Shown in pieces: positions 19,272-64,000 of a stretch of DNA of 64,000 nucleotides. The DNA lies in contig CAMBZE010000003.1 in NCBI GenBank assembly GCA_945872425.1, positions 938 through 64,937 on the forward strand. The letters run 5' to 3'. The notes under the pieces were generated by a model. That model saw only the letters and a program-made list of their open reading frames with translations, was not told the origin of the DNA and did not search any database. Made by a program: the position numbers and the translations under genes. The first letter of the stretch is position 1; each line of letters starts with the position of its first letter. The stretch comes from Methylotenera oryzisoli. GTDB taxonomy: Bacteria > Pseudomonadota > Gammaproteobacteria > Burkholderiales > Methylophilaceae.

Positions 19272-19290
19272 TAGTTAAGAGGAATACGCA

Positions 19291-20154: not shown

Positions 20155-20225
20155 TTGATATATGACGTTTTAGTTCTGAGCGATTGTCACCTTGAGATTG
20201 ACTGTGATGCTTGAAGATTTTTTGC

Positions 20226-21578: not shown

Positions 21579-21588
21579 GGACGCAGCA

Positions 21589-22197
21589 ATGCCCTCTGAC
21601 TTACCTAATGAACAAGAGCTGTTACTTAAAAAGCGCGCACATCGCCGACTGGTGGGTGCAATAGCACTCGTGCTGTTGATGGTAATTGTTCTGCCGCAAG
21701 TATTGCAAGATCGTGCTGCTATTACACAGCAAGAAGCCATCAAAATTACGATGTCTGATGCGGTTGATGAGCCTAACCTAGAACCTGCTACTGATAAGAA
21801 TTCTGTGGCTCTTCAGGAGGCTGAAGTTTTAGCGCCTCAGCAAGAAGTTGTTGTTAGTGTAGAACCTGCTATTGAAAATATCATTGCAAATAAAGACGTA
21901 GAAAATAACAAAACTGAGCCTAAAAAATCTGAAATCTCACAAGTTGCAGCTTCTCAAAACCAAAGCGAGTATTTCACGGTGCAAGTGGGTGTGTACTCAG
22001 ATGCTGCCAATGTAAAACGATTGCAAGATCAATTAAAGCAAGCAGGGTTTAACGCTTATACAGAAAAAATTATGACGCCAAAAGGTGAAAGTATTCGCCT
22101 TAAAGCTGGCAACTTTACATCACGTCAGGACGCAGTTAATGCGTTGGGCAAACTAAAAGCAATAGGGTTGTCGGGAGTTGTCATTGACAATGACTAA
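21589..22197 (+). CDS. dedD: SPOR-domain cell division protein DedD
   Basis: KRAHRRLVGAIAL followed by a TM segment, C-terminal SPOR (VQVGVYS...LKQAGF); folC-dedD-cvpA-purF synteny. Confidence 0.9.
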   Translation: MPSDLPNEQELLLKKRAHRRLVGAIALVLLMVIVLPQVLQDRAAITQQEAIKITMSDAVDEPNLEPATDKNSVALQEAEVLAPQQEVVVSVEPAIENIIANKDVENNKTEPKKSEISQVAASQNQSEYFTVQVGVYSDAANVKRLQDQLKQAGFNAYTEKIMTPKGESIRLKAGNFTSRQDAVNALGKLKAIGLSGVVIDND

Positions 22198-22224
22198 CGT
22201 TAAGGGAACACTGAGACAGTCGCA

Positions 22225-22716
22225 ATGACAAGTTTTGATTATGCTGTACTCACAATTGTAGGGCTTTCTGTCATATTTAGTGTAATGCGTGGTATGGCGA
22301 GAGAAGTGATTGCTATTTTAGGGTGGGTCGCTGCATTTTATGTAGCTAGAACCTATACCAATCAGCTTTTGCCCATGATGCCGGCAGATATTCCGACCGA
22401 ATCACTACGAGTGCTGGCCGCATTTTTGCTGCTTTTTCTGGCAACGCTGTTGCTGGCTAGCTTGTTAGGCATTGCAATCTCGGCAATTTTTAAAAAAATC
22501 GGACTAGGCTGGCTTAATCGGTTGTTAGGTGCCTTATTTGGCACGGTTCGTGGATTGCTTATTGTTTGTGTGCTGGTGTTTTTGGCAGGCCTTACTGAAA
22601 TACCCAAAGATGCTCGTTGGCGGAATGCGATGTTTAGCGCGCCAATTGAAGCCTTGGTGGTCAGCATGTTGCCATGGATACCTGAAAACATTGCTAAGTA
22701 TGTTAAATACGACTAA
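22225..22716 (+). CDS. cvpA: Colicin V production family membrane protein
   Basis: MTSFDYA, RGMAREV, NRLLGALFGTVRG. Confidence 0.93.
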   Translation: MTSFDYAVLTIVGLSVIFSVMRGMAREVIAILGWVAAFYVARTYTNQLLPMMPADIPTESLRVLAAFLLLFLATLLLASLLGIAISAIFKKIGLGWLNRLLGALFGTVRGLLIVCVLVFLAGLTEIPKDARWRNAMFSAPIEALVVSMLPWIPENIAKYVKYD

Positions 22717-22821
22717 ATTAACATCTTTAGATTTTCTTTTCACGGGCTTAAATAATGCCATTGAAAATATCTTTAAGTAATACAAAAAGTAATACAAAAT
22801 TAATCAGTTAAGGTTTTATTC

Positions 22822-24366
22822 ATGTGCGGAATTATAGGCATTGTAGGTAAAAATCCAGTTAACCAATTGTTGTATGATGGGTTGCTGGTGTTGCAGCACA
22901 GGGGGCAAGATGCCGCAGGTATCGTGACTTGTGATGGCAACACGTTTTTTATGCATAAAAATAACGGATTGGTCAAAGATGTATTTCAAACTCGCCATAT
23001 GCGTAGTTTGGTTGGCAATGCAGGTATTGCCCATGTGAGATACCCAACAGCAGGCTCTTCTAACGCAGCTGAAGCTCAGCCGTTTTATGTGAATTCACCG
23101 TTTGGTATCGTGTTAGGTCACAACGGTAATTTAACCAATTCCGAGCAGTTAAAATCAGAAATGTTCCGTCAAGATTTACGGCATATCAATACCAGTTCAG
23201 ATTCTGAAGTATTGCTTAACGTGCTGGCACACGAAATTGAAAAAACCTCGCGTAACGCAGTACTCAATACCGATATGGCTTTTGACGCAGTTGCTGGCGT
23301 ACATAAGCGTTGCAAAGGCGCGTATGCTGTTGTGGCGATGATTGCTAATTTTGGTTTGCTTGCATTCCGCGATCCCAATGGCATACGCCCATTGGTCATC
23401 GGCAAAGGCGAGACAGATAAAGGCACAGAGTATATCGTTGCTTCTGAGAGCGTGGCTTTGGATGTATTGGGTTTCAAAGTGTTGCGGGATGTTGAGCCTG
23501 GTGAGGCGATATTTATTGATATGGATGGCAATATGTATTCACGTCAGTGTGCCGAAGATGCAAAATTGAATCCATGTATTTTTGAATATGTTTATTTGGC
23601 GCGACCTGATTCAGTCATTGATGGCGTTTCTGTCTATCAGACACGCTTAGACATGGGTAAAAGTCTGGCTGAAAAAATTAAGCGCGAATGGTCAGATAAA
23701 AAAATCGATGTGGTGATTCCGATTCCTGATACTAGCCGTCCTAGCGCACTGCAAGTCGGCATCGCTTTGGGGTTGGATTATCGCGAAGGATTTATTAAAA
23801 ATCGTTATATTGGCCGCACGTTCATTATGCCAGGCCAAGCATTACGTAAAAAATCCGTACGCCAAAAACTTAATCCGATTGGCATTGAGTTTAAAGGAAA
23901 AAACGTCTTGCTAGTGGATGATTCGATTGTACGCGGCACTACGTCTCAACAAATTGTTCAAATGGCACGTGATGCAGGCGCTAATAAAGTGTATTTTGCT
24001 TCTGCAGCACCGCCTGTGCGTTTCCCCAATGTCTATGGTATTGATATGCCAAGTCGCGATGAATTGCTGGCAACGGGTCGTACCGATGAAGAAATTTGCA
24101 AGGAAATAGGTGCTGATGCGCTGATTTACCAGGATTTAGATGCATTGGTGGCTGGCATTAAATTAAGTAATCCAAAAATCAAAGCCTTTGATTGTTCTTG
24201 TTTTGATGGAAAATATGTCACGGGCGATATCAGTGAAGCCTATTTTGCTAAAATTGAATCTGCGCGGGGCGATGGCAAAAAAAACCTGAATCAGACAAAC
24301 TCAAGCACTCAGTTGGATCTGAACTTGCTTAATGTCAATGAACTGGAGTTGGAAGATGGCGCGTAG
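22822..24366 (+). CDS. purF: Amidophosphoribosyltransferase
   Basis: N-terminal [33 protein letters not shown]. Confidence 0.98.
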
Positions 24367-24371
24367 GCTTA

Positions 24372-24527
24372 AGGAAACCCTGTGCCCATCAGGGTTGCGA
24401 TAAATTTGCGTGCTTACGTATGTGTGCTCCTTGGCTTCGTAGAATAACTACGACCTGCGTCGCACGCCGCGCAATCATCACAAATTTATTCGCAACGTGG
24501 CTCATGGTGATTTAATCAGTGCTTCCT
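24372..24527. mobile_element. 156-bp MITE-like element (family B) with nested palindromes
   Basis: Terminal imperfect inverted repeats aggaaaccctg / cagtgcttcct. Inner arms ttgcgataaatttg / caaatttattcgcaa and central hairpin tcgtag-aataa-ctacga. The right ~30 bp recur as an exact reverse complement at ~45600-45629. Confidence 0.65.
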
Positions 24528-24573
24528 TAGAGTAGTAAGCGATCAACATGAATTGTTTTAGCTTATTTTATGC

Positions 24574-24602
24574 TTGACTCTGTTTTAACTTGGGTCTACC
24601 AT
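24574..24602 (+). promoter_or_regulatory. sigma70-type promoter of the metZ leader
   Basis: TTGACT-N17-TACCAT; the predicted start site (~24609) coincides with the 5' end of the riboswitch P1. Confidence 0.7.
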
Positions 24603-24605
24603 GAA

Positions 24606-24686
24606 AATGCGCTGATTTGAGTTTGCCAACATTAATCAAGGCCACACTCAGCTTGCGGGCGCATTATAAACACAGCTAAAGCGAGT
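24606..24686 (+). ncRNA. SAM-II (SAM-alpha-type) riboswitch
   Basis: P1 aatgcgc/gcgcatt, conserved GCGCTGATTT, TTGC, ATAAA and AGCTAAA segments of the SAM-II pattern, a variable inserted hairpin, and position upstream of metZ. Confidence 0.85.
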
Positions 24687-24694
24687 AAAAAAAG

Positions 24695-24730
24695 AACCCG
24701 CTTTGGCACATTGCTTGAGCGGGTTTTTTT
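24695..24730 (+). terminator. Intrinsic terminator, expression platform of the SAM-II riboswitch
   Basis: aacccgct...agcgggtt stem followed by a T tract. Confidence 0.8.
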
Positions 24731-24754
24731 ATGCCCGGAATAATTGAGATGATT

Positions 24755-25942
24755 ATGAACAAACTACAATTTTACCCAGAAACATTAAGCGTGCGTGCTG
24801 GTAGTGAGTCCACTGAATTTGGCGAGAACTCCGAAGCATTGTTTTTAAATTCCAGCTTTAGATTTAAGAGTGCGGCACAAGCGGCGGCTCGCTTTGGCGG
24901 TACAGAGCCGGGAAATATCTATTCGCGTTTTACTAATCCCACGGTGACCATGTTTCAAAATAAACTGGCGGCGTTGGAGGGGGCTGAGCAATGTGTGGCA
25001 ACATCCAGTGGGATGTCTGCGATTTTAGCGTGCGTCATGGGCTTGTGTTCAGCTGGTGATCATGTGGTAGCTTCACGTAGTATTTTTGGCACTAGCGTGC
25101 AGTTATTTGGCAACATTCTAAAACGCTGGGGTTTGGAGGTAACGTTTGTTTCATTGACCAATCCTGATGAGTGGCAGGCGGCAGTCACGCCAAAAACCAA
25201 GCTGTTTTTTGTGGAAACGCCTTCTAATCCGTTAACGGAAGTATGTGATATTCGAGTACTCGCTGATATTGCTCATCAAGCAGGCGCACATTTGGTCGTG
25301 GATAACTGCTTTTGCACGCCAGCTATTCAGCAGCCGTTAGCACTGGGGGCTGATGTTGTGATTCATTCAGCCACTAAATATATCGACGGCCAGGGCAGAT
25401 GTTTAGGTGGCGCAGTGTTGGGTTCCAAAGTGTTGATGGAGCCTGTGTATGGTTTTTTACGTACAGCGGGCGTTACCATGAGCGCATTTAATGCATGGGT
25501 GTTCTTAAAAGGGTTGGAAACGCTATATATCCGCATGGAAGCACATGCCAGGAATGCTTTGGCATTGGCCACCTGGCTGGAGGCGCAGCCTCAGGTGGCG
25601 CAGGTGTATTACCCTGGCTTAGAGTCTCACCCACAGCATGCGTTGGCGATGCGCCAGCAAACCAATGGCGGTGGCATTGTTACTTTTGAGGTTAAACCAA
25701 AGTCAGGTCAAACCCCACAGGAGGCGGCTTGGGCGCTGATTGATGCCACGCAGTTGATTTCAATCACTGCTAATTTAGGCGATGCGAAGAGTACCATTAC
25801 GCATCCGGCGACCACGACGCACAGTCGCGTAACCCCAGAAGCGCGTGCAGCAGCTGGTATTAGCGATGGCTTGGTAAGAATTGCCGTAGGTTTGGAGCAT
25901 ATTGAAGACTTGAAGGCGGATTTGGTTTTGCTGACAAAATAA
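24755..25942 (+). CDS. metZ: O-succinylhomoserine sulfhydrylase (ATG 24755 or 24749 more likely than 24731)
   Basis: YSRFTNPTV, ATSSGMSAI, VETPSNP, VVDNCF, HSATKYIDGQGR (PLP Lys), NLGDAKSTITHPATTTH. Confidence 0.95.
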   Translation: MNKLQFYPETLSVRAGSESTEFGENSEALFLNSSFRFKSAAQAAARFGGTEPGNIYSRFTNPTVTMFQNKLAALEGAEQCVATSSGMSAILACVMGLCSAGDHVVASRSIFGTSVQLFGNILKRWGLEVTFVSLTNPDEWQAAVTPKTKLFFVETPSNPLTEVCDIRVLADIAHQAGAHLVVDNCFCTPAIQQPLALGADVVIHSATKYIDGQGRCLGGAVLGSKVLMEPVYGFLRTAGVTMSAFNAWVFLKGLETLYIRMEAHARNALALATWLEAQPQVAQVYYPGLESHPQHALAMRQQTNGGGIVTFEVKPKSGQTPQEAAWALIDATQLISITANLGDAKSTITHPATTTHSRVTPEARAAAGISDGLVRIAVGLEHIEDLKADLVLLTK

Positions 25943-25983
25943 CGTTACAAATCAATAAAACCAGTCGCCAATGTGTAAATTTG

Positions 25984-26009
25984 AATAGGGTACTTGTTAC
26001 CCTATTTTT
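25984..26009 (+). terminator. Intrinsic terminator after metZ
   Basis: aatagggta-cttgt-taccctatt followed by T residues. Confidence 0.7.
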
Positions 26010-26111
26010 ACATTGAGAAACTATGTTAAAAGTATGGTTAAAACCGTTAATTTACGGGCTAATCATGCTAAAATTTGTGCCATATAAAAATCATTAAAAG
26101 TTAGTTGGAAC

Positions 26112-28655
26112 ATGGATCAATTCGCGAAAGAAACTCTCCCGATTAGTTTAGAAGACGAGATGCGTCGGTCTTACCTTGATTACGCCATGAGCGTAATTGT
26201 GGGTCGTGCGTTACCCGACGTGCGCGATGGTTTGAAACCTGTGCATAGGCGCGTTTTATTTGCGATGCATGAGCTATCTAATGACTACAATAAGCCTTAC
26301 AAAAAATCGGCACGTATCGTGGGTGATGTCATCGGTAAGTACCATCCGCATGGCGATACCGCTGTTTACGACACCATCGTGCGCATGGCGCAAGACTTCT
26401 CTCTGCGTTATATGCTGGTCGATGGTCAAGGCAACTTCGGTTCAGTGGATGGAGATAATGCGGCAGCGATGCGTTATACCGAAATCCGTATGGCGAAAAT
26501 CGCACATGAGCTGTTAGCGGATATTGATAAAGAAACCGTGGATTTTGGCCCGAATTATGACGGTTCTGAACATGAGCCGCTCATCATGCCGGCACGCATT
26601 CCAAATCTGCTGATTAACGGTAGCTCCGGCATTGCGGTGGGGATGGCAACTAACATCCCGCCGCATAACTTAAATGAAGTGCTGGATGCCTGTTTTGCCT
26701 TGCTTAAAAATCCTGAAACTGGCATTGAAGAGTTGATTGAACTGGTGCCTGCACCTGACTTTCCGACTGCAGGTATCATTTACGGTACAGTTGGGGTTAA
26801 AGAAGGTTACCGCACAGGTCGTGGCCGTGTGGTGATGCGTGGCCGCACCCATGTGGAAGATATGGATAAGAGCGGTCGTCAGATGTTGATCGTGGACGAG
26901 TTGCCGTACCAGGTAAACAAAAAAACCTTTGTTGAAAAAATTGCCGAGTTAGTCAACGAGAAGAAAATCGAGGGTATTTCTGATTTGCGCGATGAGTCAG
27001 ATAAATCAGGCATGCGCGTAGTGATTGAGCTGAAACGCGGCGAAATTCCTGAAGTGATTTTGAATAACCTGTATAAGCAAACGCAGTTGCAGGATACGTT
27101 CGGCATGAACATGGTGGCTTTGTTAGATGGTCAGCCACGCCTGCTGAATTTGAAGCAAATGCTGGAGGCGTTCTTACGTCATCGCCGTGAAGTGGTAACA
27201 CGTCGCACTGTGTTTGAGTTGAAAAAAGCACGCGGTCGTGGACATGTGTTAGAAGGTCTAGCCGTTGCATTGGCAAACGTCGATGAAATGATTGCCATCA
27301 TTAAAGCGGCGCCAACGCCACCAGAAGCCAAAGTGGATTTGATGGCGAAAGCCTGGCACTCACCTGTGGTTGAAGAAATGCTCAAACGTGCAGCGATGGA
27401 AGCAGCGCGACCAGAAGGCTTAAGCGTTGATTTTGGTTTAACGCCAAAAGGTTACAAACTGAGCGACCTGCAAGCGCAGGAAATCTTGCAAATGCGCTTG
27501 CAACGCTTGACTGGGCTTGAGCAAGGCAAGATTGTGAGTGAATATAAAGAGGTGATGGATGTCATTGCTGATTTGCTGGATATTTTAGCAACACCATCAC
27601 GTGTGACCACTATCATCACGGATGAATTGACCGAAATTAGAAAACAATTCGGTGATCAACGTCGCAGTGAGATTGTGGTCAATGCGCAGGATTTGTCGCT
27701 GGAAGATTTAATCACGCCAACGGATGTTGTTGTGACGTTATCGCACACCGGTTATATTAAATCCCAGCCCTTAGACGAATACCGTGCGCAAAGACGCGGT
27801 GGGCGCGGCAAACAGGCTGCGGCCACAAAAGAAGACGACTTTATTGACAAGATGTTCGTCGCAAATACGCATGATTACATTCTATGCTTCTCAAGCCGTG
27901 GTCGTGTGTACTGGCTCAAGGTTTACGAAGTACCGCAAGGTAGCCGCACCAGTCGTGGCAAGCCCATTGTTAACCTATTCCCGTTAGAAGAAGGTGAAAA
28001 AATCAACGCTATTCTTTCAGTAAAAGAGTTCGATGAAAATCACTTCATTTTCATGGCAACCGCATTGGGTACCGTGAAGAAAACGGCGCTAACTGAATTT
28101 GCCAACCCACGTAAATCGGGCATTATCGCCATCAATTTAGATGACGGTGACTATTTGATTGGTGCAGAAGTCACCAATGGTGCCAATGATATTGTGTTGG
28201 TCTCTAACGGCGGCAAGGCTGTGTGGTTCGACGAGGAAGAAGTGCGTCAAATGGGGCGCGCAACACGTGGTGTTCGCGGCATGAAGTTGTCTGCTAAACA
28301 GCGAGTGCTGTCATTGTTGATCGCCGATGATGATAAGCAAACAGTGTTGGTGGCTACTGAAAATGGTTACGGCAAACGCACGGTACTTGCAGACTTCCGT
28401 CATTCTGGTCGTGGCACGCAAGGGGTGAAAGCGATTGCCGTGAGCGAGCGTAACGGTCTGGTGGTTGCTGCCAAACTTGTGAATGATGATGATGAAATCA
28501 TGCTGATTACCACTGGTGGGGTATTGATCCGTACGCGTGTGAAAGAGATTCGTGAATTGGGTCGTGCAACGCAAGGCGTAACGCTGATCAATTTGGGCGA
28601 AGGCGAAAAACTATCCGGTATTGAGAAAATTGTTGAAACGGATGACGAAGAATAA
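26112..28655 (+). CDS. gyrA: DNA gyrase subunit A
   Basis: [20 protein letters not shown] (catalytic Tyr), GyrA-box QRRGGRG, C-terminal beta-pinwheel repeats. Confidence 0.99.
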
Positions 28656-54255: not shown

Positions 54256-56703
54256 TTGTCAATGACAAATCATAGAAATAATCACAAAAGCAAAAGAAGT
54301 AATGACCCACACGCTACGCGCGAGGCGAGTCGTTATGAGACACCGTTGCCCAGTCGTGAATTTATATTGGCGACGATGGGCGAGCAGGGCGTTCCATTAA
54401 GCATGGAGCAGTTATATTTGTTGCTAGATATTAGCGATGCTGAGCGTGAGGTTTTTAATAAGCGCTTGAACGCCATGGAGCGTGAAGGGCAGATTATCAG
54501 GAATAGAAAAGGCGCGCTGTGCATTGCTGACAAACTCGATCTGATTGCCGGCGTAGTACAAGGGCATCCTGATGGTTTTGGCTTTTTGATTCCGGACGAC
54601 AAAACAAAGTGCAATGGTGAGGATCTATTTTTAAGTCCGAAAGAAATGTCGCAGGTGATGCATGGCGATCGCGCCATGGTGCGCATGAGCGGTTTGGATA
54701 GAAGAGGGCGGCCGGAAGGGAAAATAGTCGAGGTGCTGGAGCGACGGACGCAACGTCTGGTTGGCCGAGTGATCCGCACGGCTGGTGTAACCATTGTTGC
54801 GGCGGAAGATAAGCGCGTTAATCTGGATATTTTGATTCCGTATCATTTGGATATGCAGGCTAAACCTGGGCAGGTGGTGATGGTAGAGCTCACCGAGCAA
54901 CCGTCAGCGCATGCGCAGCCTATGGGTAAAGTGGTTGAGATTCTAGGTAACTACGCTGACAGTGGCATGGAAATTGAAATCGCTCTGCGTAAGCATAATT
55001 TACCCCACGAATTTAGTGCGGAGTCGGTCAGGCTTGCGGAGTCGTATCCTAAGTTAGTGCAAGCCACTGATTACAAAGGCCGTATTGATAACCGAGAAAT
55101 GCCGCTGATTACGATTGATGGCGAAACGGCGCGCGACTTTGATGATGCCGTGTATGTTGAACCGCAAGGCAAAGGTTGGCGATTAGTGGTGGCTATTGCC
55201 GATGTCAGTTTTTATGTGAAACCCAATGATGCTCTGGATAAAGGCGCGTTTGACCGTGGGAATTCTGTGTATTTTCCACGACGCGTGATCCCGATGCTGC
55301 CAGAAGCTTTGTCCAATGGCTTGTGCTCACTGAACCCTGATGTAGAGCGCTTGTGCATGATATGCGACATGCAAATTGATGGTGCCGGCATTGTTAAACA
55401 GTATAAGTTTTATCCTTCTGTTATGCGCTCAAAAGCACGCATGACTTACACGCAAGTGCATGAAATACTGCAAAATCCACAAGGTGAGCTAGCGCAAGAA
55501 TATGCTTGGCTCGTGCCGCACCTGCAACATTTATACAGTGTTTATCAATTGTTACAAACGCAGCGTGAAAAGCGCGGTGCCATTGAGTTTGAATCATCCG
55601 AAACCATCATGATTTTTAACGACCAAGGCAAGATCGAGCGTATTGAGCCTAGCACTCGCAATGAGGCGCATAAGCTGATTGAGGAATGCATGTTGGCCGC
55701 CAATGTCTGTGCGTCCGAGTTTTTGAAAAAACATGAGCATCCGGCTTTGTACCGTATCCATGAGGGCCCAACGCCGGAGAAGCTGGAGCTTTTGCGTACG
55801 TTTATGGCTGAATTTGGTTTTGGGGTTGGCGGTGGCGATTCTCCACAAGCCAAAGATTACTGCAAATTGCTGGATCGGATTAAAGATCGTCCGGATGCGC
55901 AGTTATTGCAGACTGTATTATTGCGTTCTATGCAGCAGGCGGTGTATAGCCCTGATAACGTAGGTCACTTTGGCCTTGCCTATGAGGCATACGCGCACTT
56001 TACATCGCCTATACGGCGTTATCCGGATTTGCTGATACATCGAGCGATCAAAGCGGTATTAAATGGTGATCAATACAAAGCGGGAAACTGGAGTGAATTG
56101 GGTATGCATTGCTCGATGACCGAGCGGCGTGCCGACGATGCAACGCGCGATGTGACCAATTGGCTCAAATGCTTTTATATGCAGGATAAAATTGGTGAGG
56201 TGTTTGAAGGCACGGTTGCCGGTGTTACCAGCTTCGGTCTGTTTGTGGCGTTGGATGGTGTCTATGTTGAGGGCCTACTGCACGTAACCGAGCTGGGTAA
56301 TGATTATTTCCACTATGATAAAGCGCGTCATGAAATGCTGGGGGAACGTACTGCTGCGCGCTATCGTTTGGGAGACAGATTAACGATTAAAGTTGTGCGC
56401 GTAGATTTGGAAACTACTAAAATAGATTTTACTTTAGCAAGTAAAAATAAAGAGTTGGATGATAATCCTAATGTTGATTATAATAAAATAAGCGCTGATA
56501 TTAAAACGGGTGGCAGAGAAAAATCTACTGTAAAATCCGCCTCTGAATTTAAGGGTGATAAATTTGGCGTTAAACCCAAAGGCAAACCTGTCGAAAGATC
56601 AGCAGGACAATCAACGCTTTCAACAAATCCTAAAAAACAGAATAAACCCAGCAAACCCGGTAAAAGGGTTGAGCGTGCTACTAAACGTAAGGTAAAAAAA
56701 TGA
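54256..56703 (+). CDS. rnr: Ribonuclease R (start TTG 54256 or ATG 54262)
   Basis: [55 protein letters not shown]1 domain, basic tail. Confidence 0.97.
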
Positions 56704-57449
56704 GCGATGCCCGTATTTTATTTGGCTTTCATGCCGTGCTCAGTCGTTTGCGCCAACATAGCGCAAGTGTGCAAGAAATTTTAATCGACCGCGATCGCGT
56801 TGATGCGCGTATGAAAGACCTGCTCAATATCGCTGAAACCGCTGGTGTGCGCACCATGCAGGTGGAACGTAGCAGGCTGGATGGCATGGCAGGCATGAAT
56901 GGTCGGCATCAAGGCGTTATCGCGCGCGTAGTCGATACACCAATTCCGTATAAAGACATTCATGATATTTTAGAATCTGATTTAACTGAACCGCCGTTCT
57001 TTTTGATTTTAGATGGTGTAGAAGACCCGCATAACTTGGGTGCCTGCCTGCGCGTGGCCGATGCCATGGGTGTGCACGCCGTGATTGCACCTAAAGATCG
57101 AGCCGCTGGCTTGAACGCAACGGTGCGTAAAGTCGCCTGTGGTGCAGCGGAAACAGTACCCTTTATTGCTGTGACTAATTTAGCCAGAACGATACGAGAG
57201 CTGAAAGATGCCGGAGTTTATGTGGTGGGTACGACGATGGATGCGCCGAGTACATTGCTCAATACCAAGCTTGAGGGCCCCATTGCCTTAGTATTAGGCG
57301 CAGAGGGCGATGGCATGCGCCGCTTGACCGCTGAAACTTGCGATGCCTTAATGACGATTCCAATGTTCGGCTCAGTTGAGAGCTTGAATGTAAGCGTCGC
57401 CAGTGGCATATGTTTGTATGAGGTACGTCGCCAGCGCAGCTTAGCGTAA
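56700..57449 (+). CDS. rlmB: 23S rRNA (G2251-2'-O)-methyltransferase
   Basis: [38 protein letters not shown]; 4-bp overlap with rnr. Confidence 0.97.
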
Positions 57450-57884: not shown

Positions 57885-59366
57885 TCACGTCAGTTTCAGT
57901 GTGTTAAGTGTCTGTGTGCGCACTTGTTTGAGTAGATTTGCATCGTCAATCAGTGACTCACCAAATGATGGAATCGCAGTTTTAATTTTCTGCTGCCAGT
58001 CATTGTGTTCCATACGGTCCTTGAAACAGCGTTTCATTACATCTAGCATGGCTTGAACCGATACTGAGGCGCCTGGCGAGGCGCCTAGCAATGCCGCGAT
58101 ACTGCCGTCACTAGAAGTCACGATTTCAGTGCCAAACTCCAGTTTTCCACCTTTTTCATCACATTGCTTGATGATTTGCACACGGTTACCAGCCTCAGCG
58201 AGTACCCATTCTGAATCTTTGGCAGCAGGGTAATATGCACGCAAGGTATTCATGCGCGCTTTATGTTTTTGCAGGGACTCGCCGATTAAATAGCGCGTGA
58301 GATCCATATTGTTTTTGCCTACAGCTAACATTGACAATACATTGTTAGCTTTAACTGATTGTAGCAAATCGAGTTTTGAGCCTTGCTTTAGAAATTTGGT
58401 GGTAAAGCCGGCGTAGGGACCAAATAAAAGGGCGGGTTTGCCTTCAATTAAGCGCGTGTCCAAATGTGGCACAGACATTGGCGGCGCGCCAATCGCCGCT
58501 TTGCCATAGACTTTGGCTAAGTGTGTTTTTATTACGGCATCATTCTTACATACCAGCCATTGACCACTGACCGGAAAGCCGCCATAGCCTTTACTTTCCG
58601 GGATATTGGTTTTTTGTAATAAAGGCAGGGCACCGCCGCCAGCCCCTAAAAATACAAACTTAGCCTGCAGTGTTTTTGGATGTTTGGATATGGAGTCTTT
58701 TACTGCCACATGCCAGATGCCGCTTTTATCTTGTTTTAGTGTTTTTACCTGGTGATTCAACAGTAATTTGAAGTTGGCATTTTGCTGCATACTCGTGACC
58801 AAGTGACGTGTTAGTGTGCCAAAATCAACGTCTGTGCCATGGTCAACGCGTGTGGCGGCAATACGGGCAGTGGCGTCTTGGCCATCCATAACAAGCGGCA
58901 TCCAATCCCTCAATGTGGCGGCGTCTTCACTGTATTGCATCGCTTCAAATAATGGATGCCGACTTAACAGCGTATGGCGTTTTTTTAGAAAAGCAATGTC
59001 ATCATCACCCCAAACCACGCTTAAATGCGGTGTTTTATTGATAAAATTTTGTGGGGCGGGTAGCTTGTGTTTATCGACCAGATACGACCAATATTGTAGT
59101 GAAACCTCGAAAGCGGCATTGATGCTGAGTGCGCGTTTGATGTCTATATCACCATTCTCAGCTTGTGGTGTGTAATTCAGTTCGCAATAACCAGCGTGCC
59201 CGGTGCCTGCATTATTCCAACTGCTGGAGCTTTCGTGAGCGATTTCACCCAAACGCTCAACCATGACAATGGACAAGCTTGGATCAACAAGTTGCAGCAA
59301 TGAACCTAATGTGGCGCTCATAATGCCGCCACCCACTAATAACACATCCACTTTGTTTTCAGTCAT
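57885..59366 (-). CDS. mqo: Malate:quinone oxidoreductase
   Basis: LVGGGIMSATLG, NNAGTGHAGYCELNYTP, GTDVDFG, PPMSVPHLDTR, LLGASPGAS. Confidence 0.96.
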   Translation of the reverse strand: MTENKVDVLLVGGGIMSATLGSLLQLVDPSLSIVMVERLGEIAHESSSSWNNAGTGHAGYCELNYTPQAENGDIDIKRALSINAAFEVSLQYWSYLVDKHKLPAPQNFINKTPHLSVVWGDDDIAFLKKRHTLLSRHPLFEAMQYSEDAATLRDWMPLVMDGQDATARIAATRVDHGTDVDFGTLTRHLVTSMQQNANFKLLLNHQVKTLKQDKSGIWHVAVKDSISKHPKTLQAKFVFLGAGGGALPLLQKTNIPESKGYGGFPVSGQWLVCKNDAVIKTHLAKVYGKAAIGAPPMSVPHLDTRLIEGKPALLFGPYAGFTTKFLKQGSKLDLLQSVKANNVLSMLAVGKNNMDLTRYLIGESLQKHKARMNTLRAYYPAAKDSEWVLAEAGNRVQIIKQCDEKGGKLEFGTEIVTSSDGSIAALLGASPGASVSVQAMLDVMKRCFKDRMEHNDWQQKIKTAIPSFGESLIDDANLLKQVRTQTLNTLKLT

Positions 59367-59411: not shown

Positions 59412-61073
59412 CTAATCTTGTTTAACGTTTTTTTCTGCTGCTTGCGGATTAGCAAGCAGGACCTCTATATCTGTTTTTGTTAGCGTACTATTCGGCTGGG
59501 ATAAATCATTGCTCGTTGTATGCGCGCTATGAAAATCGTGACAAGACATGCAACCGCTGGCGATGCGCTTATGTTTAGGGCGATTGCCGGAGTGACAGAG
59601 CAAGCAAGATTTCCGATCCGGCATGGCGACATCGGCACTGCTTTCCGAGTTTTCAACCTGATGACAGGATGTGCATTGCTGCGTGCGGTGCAAGGCATGG
59701 TTGAATCGCGCTTTACTGAACCAGTCGGTGTTGATTAACAAGGGTGTGATGCGCCATGGGAGTGAATCGCCTTCTTTGGAATCAACAACATCATGGCAGT
59801 ATGCGCATCCTGTTGATTTTAATGTTTCCGAATAGCGGGTAAATTCTTTAGGGGCGTAAAGTTTTAATGTGTTCATTACGTTTTGCTCTGCACCATGCGG
59901 AACGCTGATTCTTGACCCCGCCGGACCAACTTTTAGCTCGCTGGCATGGCACGCAAGACAGTCGCGCTTGAATGATAAAGGCTTGAAGCGCATTTCTTTA
60001 CCTTCTGGCTGGTGGCACATCGTACATGACATTTCGCGCACATCGGAAAGCCCATTCGGCCCTTGAACTTTACCGGTATGCTGGTAGTGAGAAAATTTCA
60101 GGCCAGATTTTTCAATCAAACGCGCTTGATCTGTCTGCGGAACTCTAATGCTACCTTCATCATGGCTGGTCTTGAATGTTAATCTGAAGTCAGGGTGATC
60201 ATGGTCAAAATCATGAATATCTGACAGTGATGTTTTCGCATTCACAGACTTGATATTGCCGTGACATTTAATACACATGCCATCATCTTGCCGTGTGAGC
60301 GGAAAAGGAGATTTGTGCTCACGGTGACATTCTGCACACTGCGTGCCGCCTACAAATTTACGTTTGGCAACAAAAGCATGATGTTGCAATGCTTTATCTT
60401 CAATGTGAGGCGCAGTGTCGCGATGGCATTGCATACAGGCTTTGTCAGAAACGGGTTTAGTCAGCGTTTGGTGGCAATTGATGCATTGCGACCCAAAATG
60501 TCTATGGGCATTGGATACGTGTCCGGGACTCCATACCCGGTCAAAACCGAATGGTAGTTGTGCTATAGCCTCACGCAATTGCGGAACCAGGTTTTGTGCA
60601 ACGGGTAGGGCCACGAAGAACAGTGCGATCAATGCCACCATCCACAGAGACAGATGTCGTTTAAAAGCGGAAGCACCAGGCAGTGGCTCATGTGTGCGTG
60701 ATTTGATGTTTTGAAAGTCATCCGGCAGGCGGTTAGCAAGTGCCAGGGAGATTGCCAGATTGACATCGGGCGGCGCCGGTTCTACCGTTAATCGATAGGG
60801 GCCAACCATGACTTCTGTACCTGGAGTGAGCGGCACGTTTTGTTTTGTAGAAAACTCGACTTCCAGTTCGCCATTGATTGTGACTATATGTATTTCATCA
60901 TCGTGCATCCGCTTGATAACAGCGTGATGCATGGCAATACGAGGGTCTGGCAAATGAACCGTACATTCAGCGCCACGACCGAATGTGATTTCTTCAGCGA
61001 CTAAGGTACGATAACTGCGAACGGGCAAGCCGCGTGAGTTATGCGTAATTTTAATTAATAAACAATTGATCAT
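59412..61073 (-). CDS. FHA domain - single TM - decaheme cytochrome c (uncharacterised)
   Basis: FHA-like FGRGAECTVHLPDPRIAMHHA; TM SLWMVALIALFFVALPVA; ten CxxCH motifs: CINCH, CMQCH, CAECH, CIKCH, CTMCH, CLACH, CAYCH, CTSCH, CLLCH, CMSCH. Confidence 0.9.
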   Translation of the reverse strand: MINCLLIKITHNSRGLPVRSYRTLVAEEITFGRGAECTVHLPDPRIAMHHAVIKRMHDDEIHIVTINGELEVEFSTKQNVPLTPGTEVMVGPYRLTVEPAPPDVNLAISLALANRLPDDFQNIKSRTHEPLPGASAFKRHLSLWMVALIALFFVALPVAQNLVPQLREAIAQLPFGFDRVWSPGHVSNAHRHFGSQCINCHQTLTKPVSDKACMQCHRDTAPHIEDKALQHHAFVAKRKFVGGTQCAECHREHKSPFPLTRQDDGMCIKCHGNIKSVNAKTSLSDIHDFDHDHPDFRLTFKTSHDEGSIRVPQTDQARLIEKSGLKFSHYQHTGKVQGPNGLSDVREMSCTMCHQPEGKEMRFKPLSFKRDCLACHASELKVGPAGSRISVPHGAEQNVMNTLKLYAPKEFTRYSETLKSTGCAYCHDVVDSKEGDSLPWRITPLLINTDWFSKARFNHALHRTQQCTSCHQVENSESSADVAMPDRKSCLLCHSGNRPKHKRIASGCMSCHDFHSAHTTSNDLSQPNSTLTKTDIEVLLANPQAAEKNVKQD

Positions 61074-61076
61074 GTA

Positions 61077-61907
61077 TTACCAATAAGCAAAAACGGCAAA
61101 TATGTGCGCCACCATGGCCGCGAGCAGGGCAATGGTAAAAGGCACGTGAAAATATAGCCAGAAACCCAAACGTGCGCGGTACATTAAATCTTGCCTTGCG
61201 CGTTTGACCAGAGACTCACGACGCACCATGATGGAATAGAGTTCACGGTAAAGTTTGCGCTGTTCCATAGATAAATCATTGCCCATTGCAGTGAGTTGTT
61301 GCACGGCGATTGCCGATGGGCAGTTTGGCTGAAATCCTCTGAGCTGCTCAAGCAATCCAATACCAATTGAAGTTTCACGACAAGCCCGTGCAACGACATG
61401 GTTGATGTCATCCGGCATCACCAGCGCAATTTGACGCGCTAACTTATCAGCTTCTGCAATGCGTAACAGCAAGCCATCCAGATTATCTTCCCCCATATTC
61501 TCGGTCATTCGGCGTGGGTAAACCATATAGGTATAGTTGCCAAAAAATCCGCTGATGACCACGACCAACAATAGACCATAAGCAAGCGTGTGGATATTGA
61601 ACCCAAAATGAAACCCACTGTGCAGGGTGACAATTACTGTGAGCGCCGTGCCTAAATAAATATGCGCCGACAACCAGCCCTGTGTGGAACCCGAGCTGCG
61701 GTAGCGACGTTTGCGTACGCCATACCATGCCATCCACAATACCATCATTGCTGAAATCGAGCCCAGGGTATAACCAAGCCAGCTGCCGCCATAATGACCT
61801 ACTGCTGGCTCAAACAGCAGATATAAAACAAAGGCGATAAGAATCGCGATAGTCGCTAACTTGAGGTAACGATAGTGTTTATAGTCAAAAATATTACTGC
61901 GTTGCAT
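61077..61907 (-). CDS. Membrane protein with ferric-reductase-like bis-His pairs (putative di-heme b)
   Basis: About 5 hydrophobic helices; two His pairs 14 residues apart (AHIYLGTALTVIVTLH and FHVPFTIALLAAMVAH). Confidence 0.7.
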   Translation of the reverse strand: MQRSNIFDYKHYRYLKLATIAILIAFVLYLLFEPAVGHYGGSWLGYTLGSISAMMVLWMAWYGVRKRRYRSSGSTQGWLSAHIYLGTALTVIVTLHSGFHFGFNIHTLAYGLLLVVVISGFFGNYTYMVYPRRMTENMGEDNLDGLLLRIAEADKLARQIALVMPDDINHVVARACRETSIGIGLLEQLRGFQPNCPSAIAVQQLTAMGNDLSMEQRKLYRELYSIMVRRESLVKRARQDLMYRARLGFWLYFHVPFTIALLAAMVAHIFAVFAYW

Positions 61908-61921
61908 TCTGCTTATTCTTT

Positions 61922-64000
61922 CTAATGTTCGTCAGAACCAAGTAAAGCGGTTTCACCAGGGGTGCCGCTGGCGTAACCCAGAAGCTCCTCAGGGTTCACG
62001 CGTAGCGCAGCGCCTACCGGGCAAGCGCGCACACACATAGGACCTCCGCTAAGGTCCTTACACATATCGCATTTAACTGCTACTTTACGGTCTTCGGCAG
62101 AGGGCAAGGGTTTAGGGGTGATGTCAAGCAACATCTGCCATAAGCTGCGTTCCGGTTGATCTTGAATCACGGCCATCTGAATCACATCATAAGGGCAGTT
62201 TTGCTGGCAATTGCCGCAGCCGATACAGCTGTCGTCAATGTAAACTTCGCCGTGCGGCGCACGATGAATTGCATCAGGCGGGCAATCCTTCATGCAATGT
62301 GGATGCTCGCAATGGCGGCACGATGTCGGCACGCGAATATTAGCGAAAATGGGGCCAGTGTCACGATCTAGGCGCGAAGCCCCGCCATGCGTGTCAGCAC
62401 AAGCCTGTTCACAATGATTACAACGTATGCATAAAGATTCATCAATCAGCAGCACATCAGTCGCTTCACCAACGCCTTGTTGAATGAGAAATGAAATTAA
62501 ATTGGATTGCGTAGATTGACCGGTAACAGCACCACCGCCGTCCGCAGCGCTTTCCAACTGTTGGCGTTTCTCCTGCTCTTGTAAATGCTGAAGATAACGC
62601 GCATCCAGCTCACTGCGAATTTCCGGATTACGCGCAATGATGTCGCGCATACGATCAGCTTTAATCAACACCGCATCGGTGGCCACTGCCGCGCGTACCG
62701 TGGCGTAACGCGGCTCGCCGGAAACAAGTGACATTTCCCCAACATAGTGACCTGCTGCCACATAGAACAACACGACCTCTCTGCCACCAATCATGCGGGA
62801 TACGGTGACGGAGCCACTTTGAATGAGGTAAAGCCCATCCGCTTCATCGCCTTCGTGAAAAAAATCCTCGCCGGCGCTGAAGCTTTTAAGCTCAGCATGA
62901 CTAGCCAAATCGTTCAGGTCTTCTTCACTCAGTGAAAGCCCGATACACACGTGAACAACGCTCTTAATGGCGACTTCATTGAGCATACGGCGCATGGACT
63001 GCACGGAACCAATGAGTTTTTGCATCACTCGCCGTGGGGTTTCAATCAATACGCAGTGGGTACGGGCGCGTACGGTTCCTGCACGGCGACGGCCAGAAAC
63101 GAGTGCCAGCTCACCAAAAAAATCGCCCGTCTTGAGTTGTGCGTCTGGTACATCATCTACGTCAATTAAAACATCCAGCTCGCCTTCAACGATAGAAAAG
63201 AAAGTGGTGCTGTAATCATTGCGCTTGAAGATGATGTCTCCAGGCTTTGGTAGAAGGATGTTGCTTTCCAGTACCAGTTCGCGCAGTTGTAGCGTATTGA
63301 GCATCGCTAATAGCGGCACATTTTTTTGAATTTTCGTCAAAACATCATCAATACCACGGTCTGTGCAAAAGTCAGCGAATTTCTCACGCAGCAAAGCGGT
63401 ATCGGCAGGCTCCACAGCATTACCGAGTATGTACTCAATGACCTCATAACCCTGATTGATGCCTTGCTTAATGAGAGGGTAGCCAGCCAACGCGCCAATA
63501 ATATAGAGCCCGGGTACGTTGGATTCATAACTTGTGGAAAGCAGGGGCAGCGCACCTAAGTCAGACGTTGGAAAAGCAACGCCAAAGTTTTCCAGTAGTG
63601 GGCGTGACGGTAGGGCGCCAAGCCGTGCGATTATCCGGTGGCAAGGAATGCGTTCAGCCCCATTCGGCGTGTTGGCGTAAAGGGTGATGGGAAACTCGCC
63701 ATGGGGATTTTGCTCAATAGATTGTGGTTTTGTTTGCAGCAACCAGTCTATAGCACCTTTTTGGCGCGCATCCATGAGCTGACTCAAGTTGCTATCTTTA
63801 AGGTTACTAAAATCCTCGGCACGATTCAGTATCATCACCTGATTTCGACCAGTCAGTGCCAATGCGTTTTCTACGCCACTATCGCCACCGCCAACAATGA
63901 CAATGGTTTCATTCTGATAGTCTTTTGGATCATCAAGTTGGTATTGCACCTGCGGTAAATCCCCGCCCGGTATTTCCAGCTTACGCAAATTGCCTTGCAC
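61922..64000 (-). CDS. TrxR/FNR-type FAD-NAD(P)H oxidoreductase + 2 cNMP-binding domains + 4x[4Fe-4S] domain; 5'-truncated by the window edge
   Basis: IVIVGGGDSGVENA and YIIGALAG; FGELALVSGRRRAGTV and VGEMSLVSGEPRYATV; CIRCNHCEQAC, CRHCEHPHCMKDCP, CIGCGNCQQNCP, CDMC..PMCVRACP. Confidence 0.9.
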   Translation of the reverse strand: MQGNLRKLEIPGGDLPQVQYQLDDPKDYQNETIVIVGGGDSGVENALALTGRNQVMILNRAEDFSNLKDSNLSQLMDARQKGAIDWLLQTKPQSIEQNPHGEFPITLYANTPNGAERIPCHRIIARLGALPSRPLLENFGVAFPTSDLGALPLLSTSYESNVPGLYIIGALAGYPLIKQGINQGYEVIEYILGNAVEPADTALLREKFADFCTDRGIDDVLTKIQKNVPLLAMLNTLQLRELVLESNILLPKPGDIIFKRNDYSTTFFSIVEGELDVLIDVDDVPDAQLKTGDFFGELALVSGRRRAGTVRARTHCVLIETPRRVMQKLIGSVQSMRRMLNEVAIKSVVHVCIGLSLSEEDLNDLASHAELKSFSAGEDFFHEGDEADGLYLIQSGSVTVSRMIGGREVVLFYVAAGHYVGEMSLVSGEPRYATVRAAVATDAVLIKADRMRDIIARNPEIRSELDARYLQHLQEQEKRQQLESAADGGGAVTGQSTQSNLISFLIQQGVGEATDVLLIDESLCIRCNHCEQACADTHGGASRLDRDTGPIFANIRVPTSCRHCEHPHCMKDCPPDAIHRAPHGEVYIDDSCIGCGNCQQNCPYDVIQMAVIQDQPERSLWQMLLDITPKPLPSAEDRKVAVKCDMCKDLSGGPMCVRACPVGAALRVNPEELLGYASGTPGETALLGSDEH

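What the first reader, a model, noticed from the sequence alone, without database searches (positions are those of the whole stretch)
59412..64000. Candidate undescribed system: cyclic-nucleotide-gated transmembrane electron conduit (flavin, 4x[4Fe-4S], di-heme b, decaheme c)
Seen: three co-oriented genes with 14-nt and 3-nt gaps encode a cytoplasmic FAD/NAD(P)H + 2 cNMP + 4x[4Fe-4S] protein, a bis-His membrane protein, and an FHA-TM-10xCxxCH protein. Known: each module is an electron-transfer part (TrxR-type FNR, DmsB/NrfC-type Fe-S wire, NOX/MsrQ-type heme-b domain, periplasmic multiheme c). The layout parallels Fre-MsrQ-MsrP and NOX, but there is no catalytic molybdo- or other terminal subunit and no porin. 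Inference: a continuous wire from cytoplasmic NAD(P)H to a periplasmic heme array, or the reverse, switched by cAMP/cGMP and possibly by FHA-mediated protein contacts. It would thus be a second-messenger-controlled redox output or a redox-sensing signalling complex. I know of no characterised complex with this architecture.
Basis: partly seen in the sequence, partly recalled or inferred. Interest (0 to 1): 0.92.

Follow-up and report, generated by a model that had tools for sequence, protein, structure and literature searches.

The report
NAD(P)H-to-periplasm flavin/FeS/heme electron wire
Three tightly packed genes of a small-genome Methylotenera-like methylotroph carry every cofactor site needed to pass electrons from NAD(P)H inside the cell, across the inner membrane, to a ten-heme protein outside it. 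The trio is widespread and has been noticed in three genome papers, but nobody has tested what it does.

Summary
On the minus strand lie A, B and C. A is 818 aa and its first 126 residues lie beyond the window. It has a TrxR/YpdA-like flavoprotein, two cNMP-binding domains and four [4Fe-4S] motifs. B is 276 aa with 5 TM helices and four invariant His. C is 553 aa: FHA fold, one TM helix, ten invariant CxxCH. The gaps are 14 and 3 nt.

The trio is not undescribed. B carries the exact WX3HX13H/SGXXG signature of the "inner membrane protein" of the PCC3/PCC4 clusters (He 2017). The parts match PtdC+E/PtdF/PtdG of the ptd operon (2023 preprint), and an FHA-multiheme/5-TM/FeS trio was reported in Ferrigenium (2026 preprint). 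None has been tested.

A, B and C co-localise in every lineage examined, in three arrangements: A-B-C, an A::B fusion, and B-C-…-A. The window's clade keeps only this inner module; relatives add a barrel-like protein and further multiheme proteins.

Most likely function: a regulated NAD(P)H→FAD→FeS→2 heme b→10 heme c conduit that exports electrons.

cNMP control is plausible: the binding residues are conserved, and a phosphodiesterase-like gene sits in the operon in Sphingobium. But this draft genome has no detectable cyclase. The FHA domain lacks the phosphothreonine-binding Ser.

The parts
61922..64000 (-). Gene A, residues 127-818 of an 818-aa protein. The start codon and the FAD GxGxxG motif lie 378 nt beyond the window end. 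It is a cytoplasmic TrxR/YpdA-like NAD(P)H flavoprotein, followed by tandem cNMP-binding domains and a 4x[4Fe-4S] ferredoxin domain.
63875..63892 (-). Second dinucleotide-binding motif GGGDSG of A (residues 163-168), the NAD(P)H site. The conserved 'LNR' after the next strand suggests NADPH; this is an inference.
63011..63247 (-). cNMP-binding domain 1 of A. Its phosphate-binding cassette is FGELALVSGRRRAGTV, with the Glu and Arg conserved.
62627..62887 (-). cNMP-binding domain 2 of A. Its cassette is GEMSLVSGEPRYATV, with the Glu and Arg conserved.
62009..62446 (-). HycB/DmsB-type ferredoxin domain of A. The four Cys motifs are CxxCxxCxxxC, CxxCx4CxxxC, CxxCxxCxxxC and CxxCx8CxxxC, 16 Cys in all, conserved in every homologue.
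61077..61907 (-). Gene B, a 276-aa 5-TM inner-membrane protein with the N-terminus inside and the C-terminus outside. It is a predicted di-heme b protein and has a 119-residue cytoplasmic helical insert between TM4 and TM5.
   Evidence: motif definition in PMC5566968
61617..61682 (-). TM3 of B, carrying W78-x3-H82-x13-H96.
61086..61169 (-). TM5 of B, carrying W250-x3-H254-x13-H268.
59412..61073 (-). Gene C, a 553-aa protein made of a cytoplasmic FHA-fold domain, one TM helix and a periplasmic decaheme c domain.
60738..61073 (-). FHA-fold domain of C (residues 1-112). The canonical Arg is kept, the phosphate-binding Ser is replaced by Ala47, and the Asn is not conserved.
60588..60668 (-). Single TM helix of C (residues 136-162).
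59529..60506 (-). Ten CxxCH motifs of C plus ten conserved non-motif His (H190, 223, 253, 293, 329, 332, 393, 459, 462, 515). This fits bis-His ligation of all ten hemes, a wire rather than a catalytic site.

Best explanation
A, B and C form one inner-membrane electron-transfer module.

Proposed path:
- A oxidises NAD(P)H, probably NADPH, at a TrxR/YpdA-like flavoprotein that lacks any redox-active cysteine.
- A passes the electrons down its own four [4Fe-4S] clusters.
- The clusters dock on the cytoplasmic face of B.
- B relays the electrons across the membrane through two b hemes. One is held by H82/H254 near the cytoplasm and one by H96/H268 near the periplasm.
- C takes them into a chain of ten bis-His c hemes in the periplasm.

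Direction is inferred to be outward, from NAD(P)H to the periplasm. That direction is favoured both by redox potential and by the membrane potential, as in NOX and Fre-MsrQ.

The tandem PKA-R-like cNMP-binding domains lie between the flavin and FeS parts. They most likely modulate this flux.

The FHA fold of C is a phospho-independent docking domain.

The window's clade carries only this inner module. It must therefore hand electrons to soluble periplasmic partners. In relatives the same module feeds a c554-like cytochrome, a 10-heme/beta-propeller cytochrome, a barrel-like protein and an HbpS-like lipoprotein.

Shown here: domains, motifs, their conservation, co-localisation and the fusion. 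Inferred: heme b binding, direction, acceptor and regulation.
For: Domains and motifs.

B:
- It has the PCC3/PCC4 IMP signature, with four invariant His across 17-80% identity.
- It gives a weak cytochrome b561 Pfam hit of 28.1 bits.
- Its topology follows the positive-inside rule and is fixed by natural A::B fusions of 1118-1135 aa in one genus.

Co-localisation:
- A-B-C stand in the same order in all ~35 Methylophilaceae loci and in 12 genomes of at least five other families.
- The order is B-C-...-A on the same contig in 10 of 10 Burkholderiales, Arenimonas and Usitatibacter genomes.
- Sphingobium herbicidovorans pMSHV is a named example.

NAD(P)H as the cytoplasmic partner: ptd-like clusters pair the same cNMP-FeS/IMP/decaheme core with a non-orthologous FNR-type NAD(P)H flavoprotein (bioRxiv 10.1101/2023.11.21.568154). 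That is independent recruitment of an NAD(P)H input.

C as a wire: ten conserved distal His for ten hemes. C is the only cytochrome in this genome with more than two hemes.

cNMP link:
- Both cassettes keep Glu and Arg in all full-length homologues.
- The nearest PDB relatives are the PKG/PKA-R tandem domains (5e-29).
- A CpdA/SpdA-like phosphodiesterase gene follows C in five Sphingomonad-type genomes.
- 15 of 16 A-bearing Methylophilaceae have a class III cyclase, against 44 of 65 others (one-sided p=0.03).
Against: - No experiment exists for any member of the family.
- B has no significant Pfam or NCBIfam family and no fold or sequence match to any solved cytochrome b. Heme b therefore rests on motifs alone.
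- This genome has no detectable class I, III or IV cyclase and no homologue of the phosphodiesterase. cNMP gating here is unproven.
- No terminal acceptor is identifiable. Direction is a thermodynamic argument only.
- No multimer model or cofactor distances could be computed.
- He et al. and the Ferrigenium preprint favour a quinone link instead.
Confidence: 0.6

Rival explanations
1. B-C is a quinone-coupled module. Electrons from periplasmic donors (cytochromes c; Fe(II) oxidases in iron oxidisers) run through C and B into the quinone pool, or quinol is oxidised outward as with CymA or CbcL. A is an accessory or regulatory redox sensor rather than the main electron input.
For: He et al. proposed a quinone-active di-heme b role for the IMP. 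The Ferrigenium preprint proposes that the FHA-multiheme protein links Fe(II) oxidation to quinone reduction. B's best Pfam hit is the quinone-reactive cytochrome b561/HyaC family.
Against: A is never missing where B-C was found. It shows three gene orders plus a covalent A::B fusion. A four-cluster FeS wire tethered to an NAD(P)H flavoprotein is electron-transfer hardware, not a typical sensor, and it has no output domain. Ptd-type clusters recruit a different NAD(P)H flavoprotein to the same core. No quinone-site motif could be tested.
Confidence: 0.2
2. The wire runs inward. Low-potential periplasmic or extracellular donors reduce cytoplasmic NAD(P)+ through C, B and A, as reverse electron supply for biosynthesis.
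For: Relatives occur in iron oxidisers and carry outer-envelope cytochromes. TrxR-like FNRs are reversible enzymes.
Against: Inward electron movement works against the membrane potential. In a methylotroph the periplasmic donors (cytochromes cL/cH) are about 0.5 V more positive than NAD(P)H. The module has no proton-coupling or bifurcating element. This genome has no outer conduit.
Confidence: 0.08
3. It is a signalling complex without net electron throughput. It would sense periplasmic redox state via C and B and integrate it with cNMP and FHA contacts.
For: cNMP-binding and FHA domains are typical signalling parts. One Hanks-type kinase exists in the genome.
Against: None of the three proteins has an output domain (no kinase, GGDEF, HTH or the like). 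The FHA lacks the phosphothreonine-binding Ser. Sixteen hemes or clusters and a flavin are excessive for a sensor. Relatives couple the module to more multiheme proteins.
Confidence: 0.07

Closest known systems
PtdC/PtdE/PtdF/PtdG of the ptdABCDEFG cluster (bioRxiv 10.1101/2023.11.21.568154), equivalent to the PCC4 cluster of He et al. 2017 (PMC5566968). Predicted only, never tested.
   Same: It has a cNMP-binding FeS protein directly upstream of a 5-TM 'ferric-reductase-like' membrane protein with WX3HX13H on TM3 and TM5, followed by a decaheme c. An NAD(P)H flavoprotein belongs to the set. Ptd-like loci L114 and L115 align with A (26-27% over cNMP domain 2 plus FeS), B (21-26%) and C (21-23%).
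   Different: Here the flavoprotein is TrxR/YpdA-like and fused to the cNMP/FeS protein. In ptd it is a separate FNR-type protein. Here there are two cNMP domains and four clusters. C carries a cytoplasmic FHA fold. There are no porin and no penta- or tetra-heme genes in the genome.
FHA-nonaheme cytochrome c / 5-TM protein / [4Fe-4S] protein cluster of Ferrigenium straubiae KS (bioRxiv 10.64898/2026.01.22.701106, section 6.3.2)
   Same: It has the same three-gene layout, with a cytosolic FHA domain on a single-TM multiheme c. It was expressed under all conditions tested there and its function is unknown.
   Different: It has nine hemes, not ten. The authors found no redox motif in the 5-TM protein and did not report cNMP or flavin domains. 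Sequences were not on hand, so homology was not tested directly.
NOX/FRE ferric reductases and Fre-MsrQ
   Same: The logic is the same: cytoplasmic NAD(P)H flavin, then two b hemes stacked across the membrane on His pairs of TM3 and TM5, then an acceptor outside.
   Different: B gives no Pfam FRD (PF01794) hit and no fold match. B has 5 TM helices, not 6, and a 119-residue cytoplasmic insert. An FeS wire lies between flavin and heme. The acceptor is a decaheme c, not O2, Fe(III) or MsrP.
Tmc/Hmc/DsrMKJOP complexes of sulfate reducers and CbcL of Geobacter
   Same: These are transmembrane complexes that join periplasmic multiheme c to membrane heme b and, in Tmc/Hmc/Dsr, to cytoplasmic FeS proteins.
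   Different: The subunit families are unrelated. None has an NAD(P)H flavoprotein, cNMP-binding domains or an FHA domain. CbcL is quinone-linked. This comparison rests on general knowledge and was not tested here.

Membership tests
PCC3/PCC4-type inner membrane protein (He et al. 2017) = PtdF | About 300 aa, five TM helices, WX3HX13H on TM3 and on TM5, SGXXG on TM4 | tested here: met
   W78/H82/H96, S119-G120-x-x-G123 and W250/H254/H268 are invariant or nearly so in 20 sequences. Five helices in the AF2 model. Definition taken.
PCC4 / ptd gene cluster | FeS (PF13247) protein gene directly upstream of the IMP gene, carrying a cNMP-binding domain (PtdE) | tested here: met
   A ends 14 nt before B. 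Fer4_11 and cNMP_binding hits.
PCC4 / ptd gene cluster | Decaheme periplasmic cytochrome next to the IMP | tested here: met
   C has ten invariant CxxCH and starts 3 nt after B.
PCC4 / ptd gene cluster | Porin plus tetra- and penta-heme cytochrome genes in the cluster | tested here: not met
   None is adjacent. C is the only cytochrome in the genome with more than two hemes. No homologue of the barrel-like or 10-heme/LVIVD genes exists, also in three closed same-genus genomes.
PCC4 / ptd gene cluster | Separate FNR-type FAD/NAD(P) oxidoreductase (PtdC) | tested here: not met
   The ptd-like locus L114 has an NAD_binding_1+Fer2 protein. Here a TrxR/YpdA-like domain is fused to A.
Prokaryotic cytochrome b561 / Ni_hydr_CYTB (PF01292) | Score above Pfam gathering threshold | tested here: inconclusive
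   28.1 bits against a cut-off of 30.1, covering residues 42-126 only. No PDB sequence or fold match.
Ferric reductase domain (NOX/FRE/MsrQ, PF01794) | Pfam match or fold match to solved members | tested here: not met
   No PF01794 hit. Best Foldseek E-value 0.09, to unrelated helical proteins.
Cyclic-nucleotide-binding domain (PF00027), ligand-competent | Domain match plus the Glu and Arg of the phosphate-binding cassette | tested here: met
   121 bits with two domains. FGE...R.A and GEM...R.A are conserved in all full-length homologues.
Cyclic-nucleotide signalling in this organism | A nucleotide cyclase encoded in the genome | tested here: not met
   PF00211, PF01295 and PF01928 are all absent from the 98.3%-complete draft. 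One is present in the three same-genus genomes.
Phosphothreonine-binding FHA domain | FHA fold with the conserved Arg, Ser and Asn that contact pThr | tested here: not met
   The fold is confirmed (TM 0.7 to GarA/OdhI) and the Arg is kept. The Ser aligns with Ala47. Ser and Asn are not conserved in the family.
Thioredoxin reductase / YpdA bacillithiol-disulfide reductase | Redox-active CxxC (TrxR), or Cys in the GGPCG motif (YpdA) | tested here: not met
   There is no CxxC in residues 1-340 (Cys only at 246 and 338), and the motif reads GAGPSG. The feature definitions come from general knowledge.
HycB/DmsB/NrfC-type four-cluster ferredoxin | Four Cys groups (16 Cys) in the Fer4_11 pattern | tested here: met
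   The motifs are at 650, 687, 718 and 770, conserved in all homologues. The best PDB relatives are HycB3/HycB4 of HDCR.

The most novel reading that the evidence does not exclude
The trio would be a quinone-independent NAD(P)H:periplasmic-cytochrome oxidoreductase, NOX-like in logic, gated by a second messenger and built around a structurally unrepresented family of di-heme b membrane proteins. That family has about 4,900 clusters at 50% identity and no Pfam model. In this streamlined methylotroph, which has no outer conduit, the trio would act as a regulated valve that dumps excess reducing power onto periplasmic cytochromes or soluble acceptors.
Probability: 0.35. Interest if true: 0.8.

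Novelty: new member of a known kind. Interest (0 to 1): 0.55.

Why it matters
Known bacterial routes that send electrons to periplasmic or extracellular multiheme cytochromes start at the quinone pool (CymA, ImcH, CbcL).

A direct NAD(P)H-FeS-heme b-heme c route under cyclic-nucleotide control would be a different way to cross the inner membrane. It would also give a function to a large family of unannotated membrane proteins.

The family occurs in cultured, tractable strains: Methylotenera mobilis 13, M. oryzisoli and Sphingobium herbicidovorans MH. The hypothesis is therefore directly testable.

The minimal three-gene form in a 1.5-Mb genome is the simplest version to reconstitute.

Tried and rejected
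- I first concluded from 8-kb flanks that A was absent from Burkholderiales, Arenimonas and Usitatibacter loci. That was an artefact. Whole-genome searches found A on the same contigs just beyond the flank.
- Fold search and PDB profile search of B gave no meaningful match.
- The whole-chain model of C was only moderate (pLDDT 70.6). Its PDB matches were all to the FHA domain, so nothing was learned about the heme domain's fold.
- Promoter and terminator scans were at chance level. They do not say whether mqo, 45 nt downstream, is co-transcribed.
- Rejected: TrxR or bacillithiol reductase function for A, because it has no redox-active Cys.
- Rejected: C as a catalytic multiheme enzyme, because there are ten distal His for ten hemes.
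- Literature searches for a characterised homologue found only the three genome-context descriptions.


Full report
**Where the finding lies.** The window is contig C3:938-64937 of a 1.49-Mb, 81-contig genome that is 98.3% complete and has 46% G+C. Its closest relatives are Methylotenera and other Methylophilaceae. I fetched the rest of the contig as L002.

**The observation.** Three co-oriented minus-strand ORFs are present as described.
- A runs from 61922 to the window end. In the contig it is 818 aa, with its ATG 378 nt beyond the window.
- B is 61077-61907 (276 aa).
- C is 59412-61073 (553 aa).
- The gaps are 14 nt and 3 nt.
- Upstream of A there is only a divergent modABC operon. There is no cyclase, phosphodiesterase or kinase gene there.
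- Downstream, 45 nt after C, lies mqo.

**Protein A.**
- Pfam finds Pyr_redox_2/3, two cNMP_binding domains (121 bits) and Fer4_11-type clusters.
- The nearest solved relatives are YpdA/Bdr and TrxR-like FNRs for residues 3-300. For residues 353-572 they are the tandem cNMP domains of PKG and PKA-R (5e-29). For residues 642-799 they are HycB3/HycB4 and HycB.
- The FAD motif reads GAGPSG, and there is no CxxC in the flavoprotein part. A is therefore not a disulfide reductase. It resembles a ferredoxin-NADP reductase feeding its own FeS domain.
- The second dinucleotide motif is followed by a conserved LNR, which suggests NADPH. This is an inference.
- Both phosphate-binding cassettes (FGELALVSGRRRAGTV and GEMSLVSGEPRYATV) keep the ligand-contacting Glu and Arg in every full-length homologue at 41-89% identity. 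All 16 Cys of the four cluster motifs are conserved as well.

**Protein B.**
- It has no family above threshold: Ni_hydr_CYTB scores 28.1 bits against 30.1, and NCBIfam finds nothing.
- Databases call it a hypothetical protein.
- An alignment of 20 homologues at 17-80% identity leaves W78, H82, H96, G120, G123, W250, H254, P256 and H268 invariant.
- This is exactly the signature WX3HX13H on TM3 and TM5 plus SGXXG on TM4. He et al. 2017 defined it for the conserved inner membrane protein of their putative PCC3 and PCC4 porin-cytochrome clusters, and read it as two b hemes.
- The AF2 model is confident (pLDDT 84.8, pTM 0.74). It shows five TM helices and a helical insert between TM4 and TM5.
- Charge distribution puts the N-terminus, loop 2 and the insert inside the cell.
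- H82/H254 then sit near the cytoplasmic face and H96/H268 near the periplasmic face.
- Neither Foldseek nor a profile search finds any solved relative. Heme b binding therefore remains a motif-based prediction.
- The family is large: 4,918 clusters at 50% identity with E≤1e-3.

**Protein C.**
- All ten CxxCH motifs are invariant in 20 homologues at 23-68% identity. Ten further His are invariant or nearly so, enough for bis-His ligation of every heme. C is thus an electron wire without an open catalytic site.
- Residues 1-112 fold as an FHA domain, with pLDDT about 90 and GarA and OdhI as top hits.
- In the HMMER alignment with GarA, the phosphate-binding Ser corresponds to Ala47.
- Across the family only the Gly-Arg pair is invariant.
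- I therefore read the FHA as a phospho-independent docking domain. The genome does encode one Hanks-type kinase.
- C is the only cytochrome in the genome with more than two hemes.

**Conservation of the trio.**
- A-B-C occurs in the same order in all Methylophilaceae loci with enough flank.
- It is found in 16 of 81 genomes, or 10 of 41 genera, of the family.
- It is found in 12 genomes of at least five other families of Pseudomonadota.
- In one genus A and B are a single 1118-1135-aa protein. This argues for direct contact and fixes B's N-terminus in the cytoplasm.
- In Burkholderiales, Arenimonas and Usitatibacter I at first thought A was missing. Whole-genome searches then found it in 10 of 10 genomes, on the same contig and strand.
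- The gene order there is: B, C, an HbpS-like lipoprotein, a barrel-like protein without a Pfam match, a 10-heme/LVIVD-propeller cytochrome, a c554-like cytochrome, then A.
- A named example is plasmid pMSHV of Sphingobium herbicidovorans MH. It carries A-B-C-metallophosphoesterase, convergent with the heme-binding, hypothetical and multiheme genes, all generically annotated.
- Within Methylophilaceae, ten carriers have the trio only, including the three closed same-genus genomes. Five more distant carriers have the long form.
- The window's own genome has no homologue of the outer genes.

**Prior descriptions.**
- PCC4 comprises a porin, 4-, 5- and 10-heme cytochromes, the IMP, and in subgroup II a PF13247 FeS gene upstream of the IMP.
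- The ptdABCDEFG operon lists PtdC (FAD/NAD(P) oxidoreductase), PtdE (cNMP-binding FeS protein), PtdF (ferric-reductase-like membrane protein) and PtdG (decaheme). Its function is unknown.
- A 2026 preprint on Ferrigenium straubiae describes an FHA-nonaheme cytochrome beside a 5-TM protein and a [4Fe-4S] protein. It was expressed under all conditions tested and its function is unknown.
- Ptd-like loci in my set (L114, L115) align weakly but consistently with A, B and C.
- Their flavoprotein is of the FNR type. Two unrelated NAD(P)H flavoproteins have thus been recruited to the same core, which supports NAD(P)H as the cytoplasmic partner.

**Cyclic nucleotides.**
- For: the conserved cassettes.
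- For: a CpdA/SpdA-like phosphodiesterase gene directly after C in five Sphingomonad-type genomes. It scores below the equivalog cut-offs.
- For: a weak enrichment of class III cyclases among A-bearing Methylophilaceae, 15 of 16 against 44 of 65, one-sided p=0.03 without phylogenetic correction.
- Against, for this organism: no class I, III or IV cyclase and no phosphodiesterase homologue in the draft. The three same-genus genomes each have one cyclase.

**Mechanism.** The best-supported reading is a wire: NAD(P)H, FAD, four [4Fe-4S], two heme b, ten heme c.
- I infer outward flow. It is downhill in redox terms, and it moves negative charge toward the positive side of the membrane.
- Inward flow would oppose both, and the module has no coupling device.
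- Outward flow dissipates membrane potential, which gives a rationale for tight control by the cNMP domains.
- The acceptor in this clade is unknown. Candidates are the soluble mono- and di-heme cytochromes c of the periplasm.
- Earlier notes of this scan on homologous trios in other genomes reached similar readings. I treat them as agreement, not as evidence.

**Verdict.** The system is a new member, in minimal trio-only form, of a kind that has been described from genome context but never characterised.

Noticed in passing
L039 9725-17390; L122 818-8380; L121 (Sphingobium pMSHV) 19153-26484: Relatives attach an outer module to the trio. It consists of a lipoprotein with three HbpS-like domains, a ~626-aa protein with no Pfam match and an OMP-like C-terminal aromatic residue, a ~1280-aa 10-heme cytochrome with an LVIVD beta-propeller, and a 444-aa c554-like cytochrome. 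It looks like an undescribed porin-cytochrome type.
   Followed up: partly
L103 6380-9787; L113 5850-9206: Natural fusion of A and B into one 1118-1135-aa protein in one genus. The C-terminus of the FeS domain is joined to B's N-terminus by a ~15-residue linker.
   Followed up: yes
L107 10381-11250; L108 10769-11620; L111 10698-11543; L112 10377-11225; L121 17227-18075: A ~285-aa calcineurin-like phosphoesterase lies directly downstream of C. Its best matches are SpdA (a 2',3'-cNMP phosphodiesterase) and CpdA, both below the curated cut-offs. The window's genome has no homologue.
   Followed up: partly
L041, L043, L051-L053, L058, L061, L067 (upstream of B): In Burkholderiales-type loci a full System I cytochrome c maturation set (ccmI, ccmABC, ccmE, ccmF) is transcribed divergently from B-C. 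The window's genome has no System I homologues apart from a weak CcsA-like hit on C13.
   Followed up: partly
L051 and L061 (both on contig JANYDB010000076.1): Two paralogous copies of the whole ccm/B-C/outer-module cluster lie on one 54.6-kb contig.
   Followed up: no
L106 5985-8462: Genome G001 has a second A paralogue (44% identity). It is not followed by B or C but by an unrelated 297-aa ORF.
   Followed up: no
window 57885-59366 (-): mqo (malate:quinone oxidoreductase) lies 45 nt downstream of C. It is the downstream neighbour in about 16 Methylophilaceae loci but not in all. No terminator was detected between the two genes, so co-transcription is unresolved.
   Followed up: partly
window 54256-57449 (+): RNase R (815 aa) and RlmB (249 aa) overlap by 4 nt. 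This is an ordinary pair, also syntenic in relatives.
   Followed up: no
L002 7475-9798 (+), beyond the window end: The molybdate ABC transporter modABC is transcribed divergently from A, with a 158-nt intergenic region.
   Followed up: no
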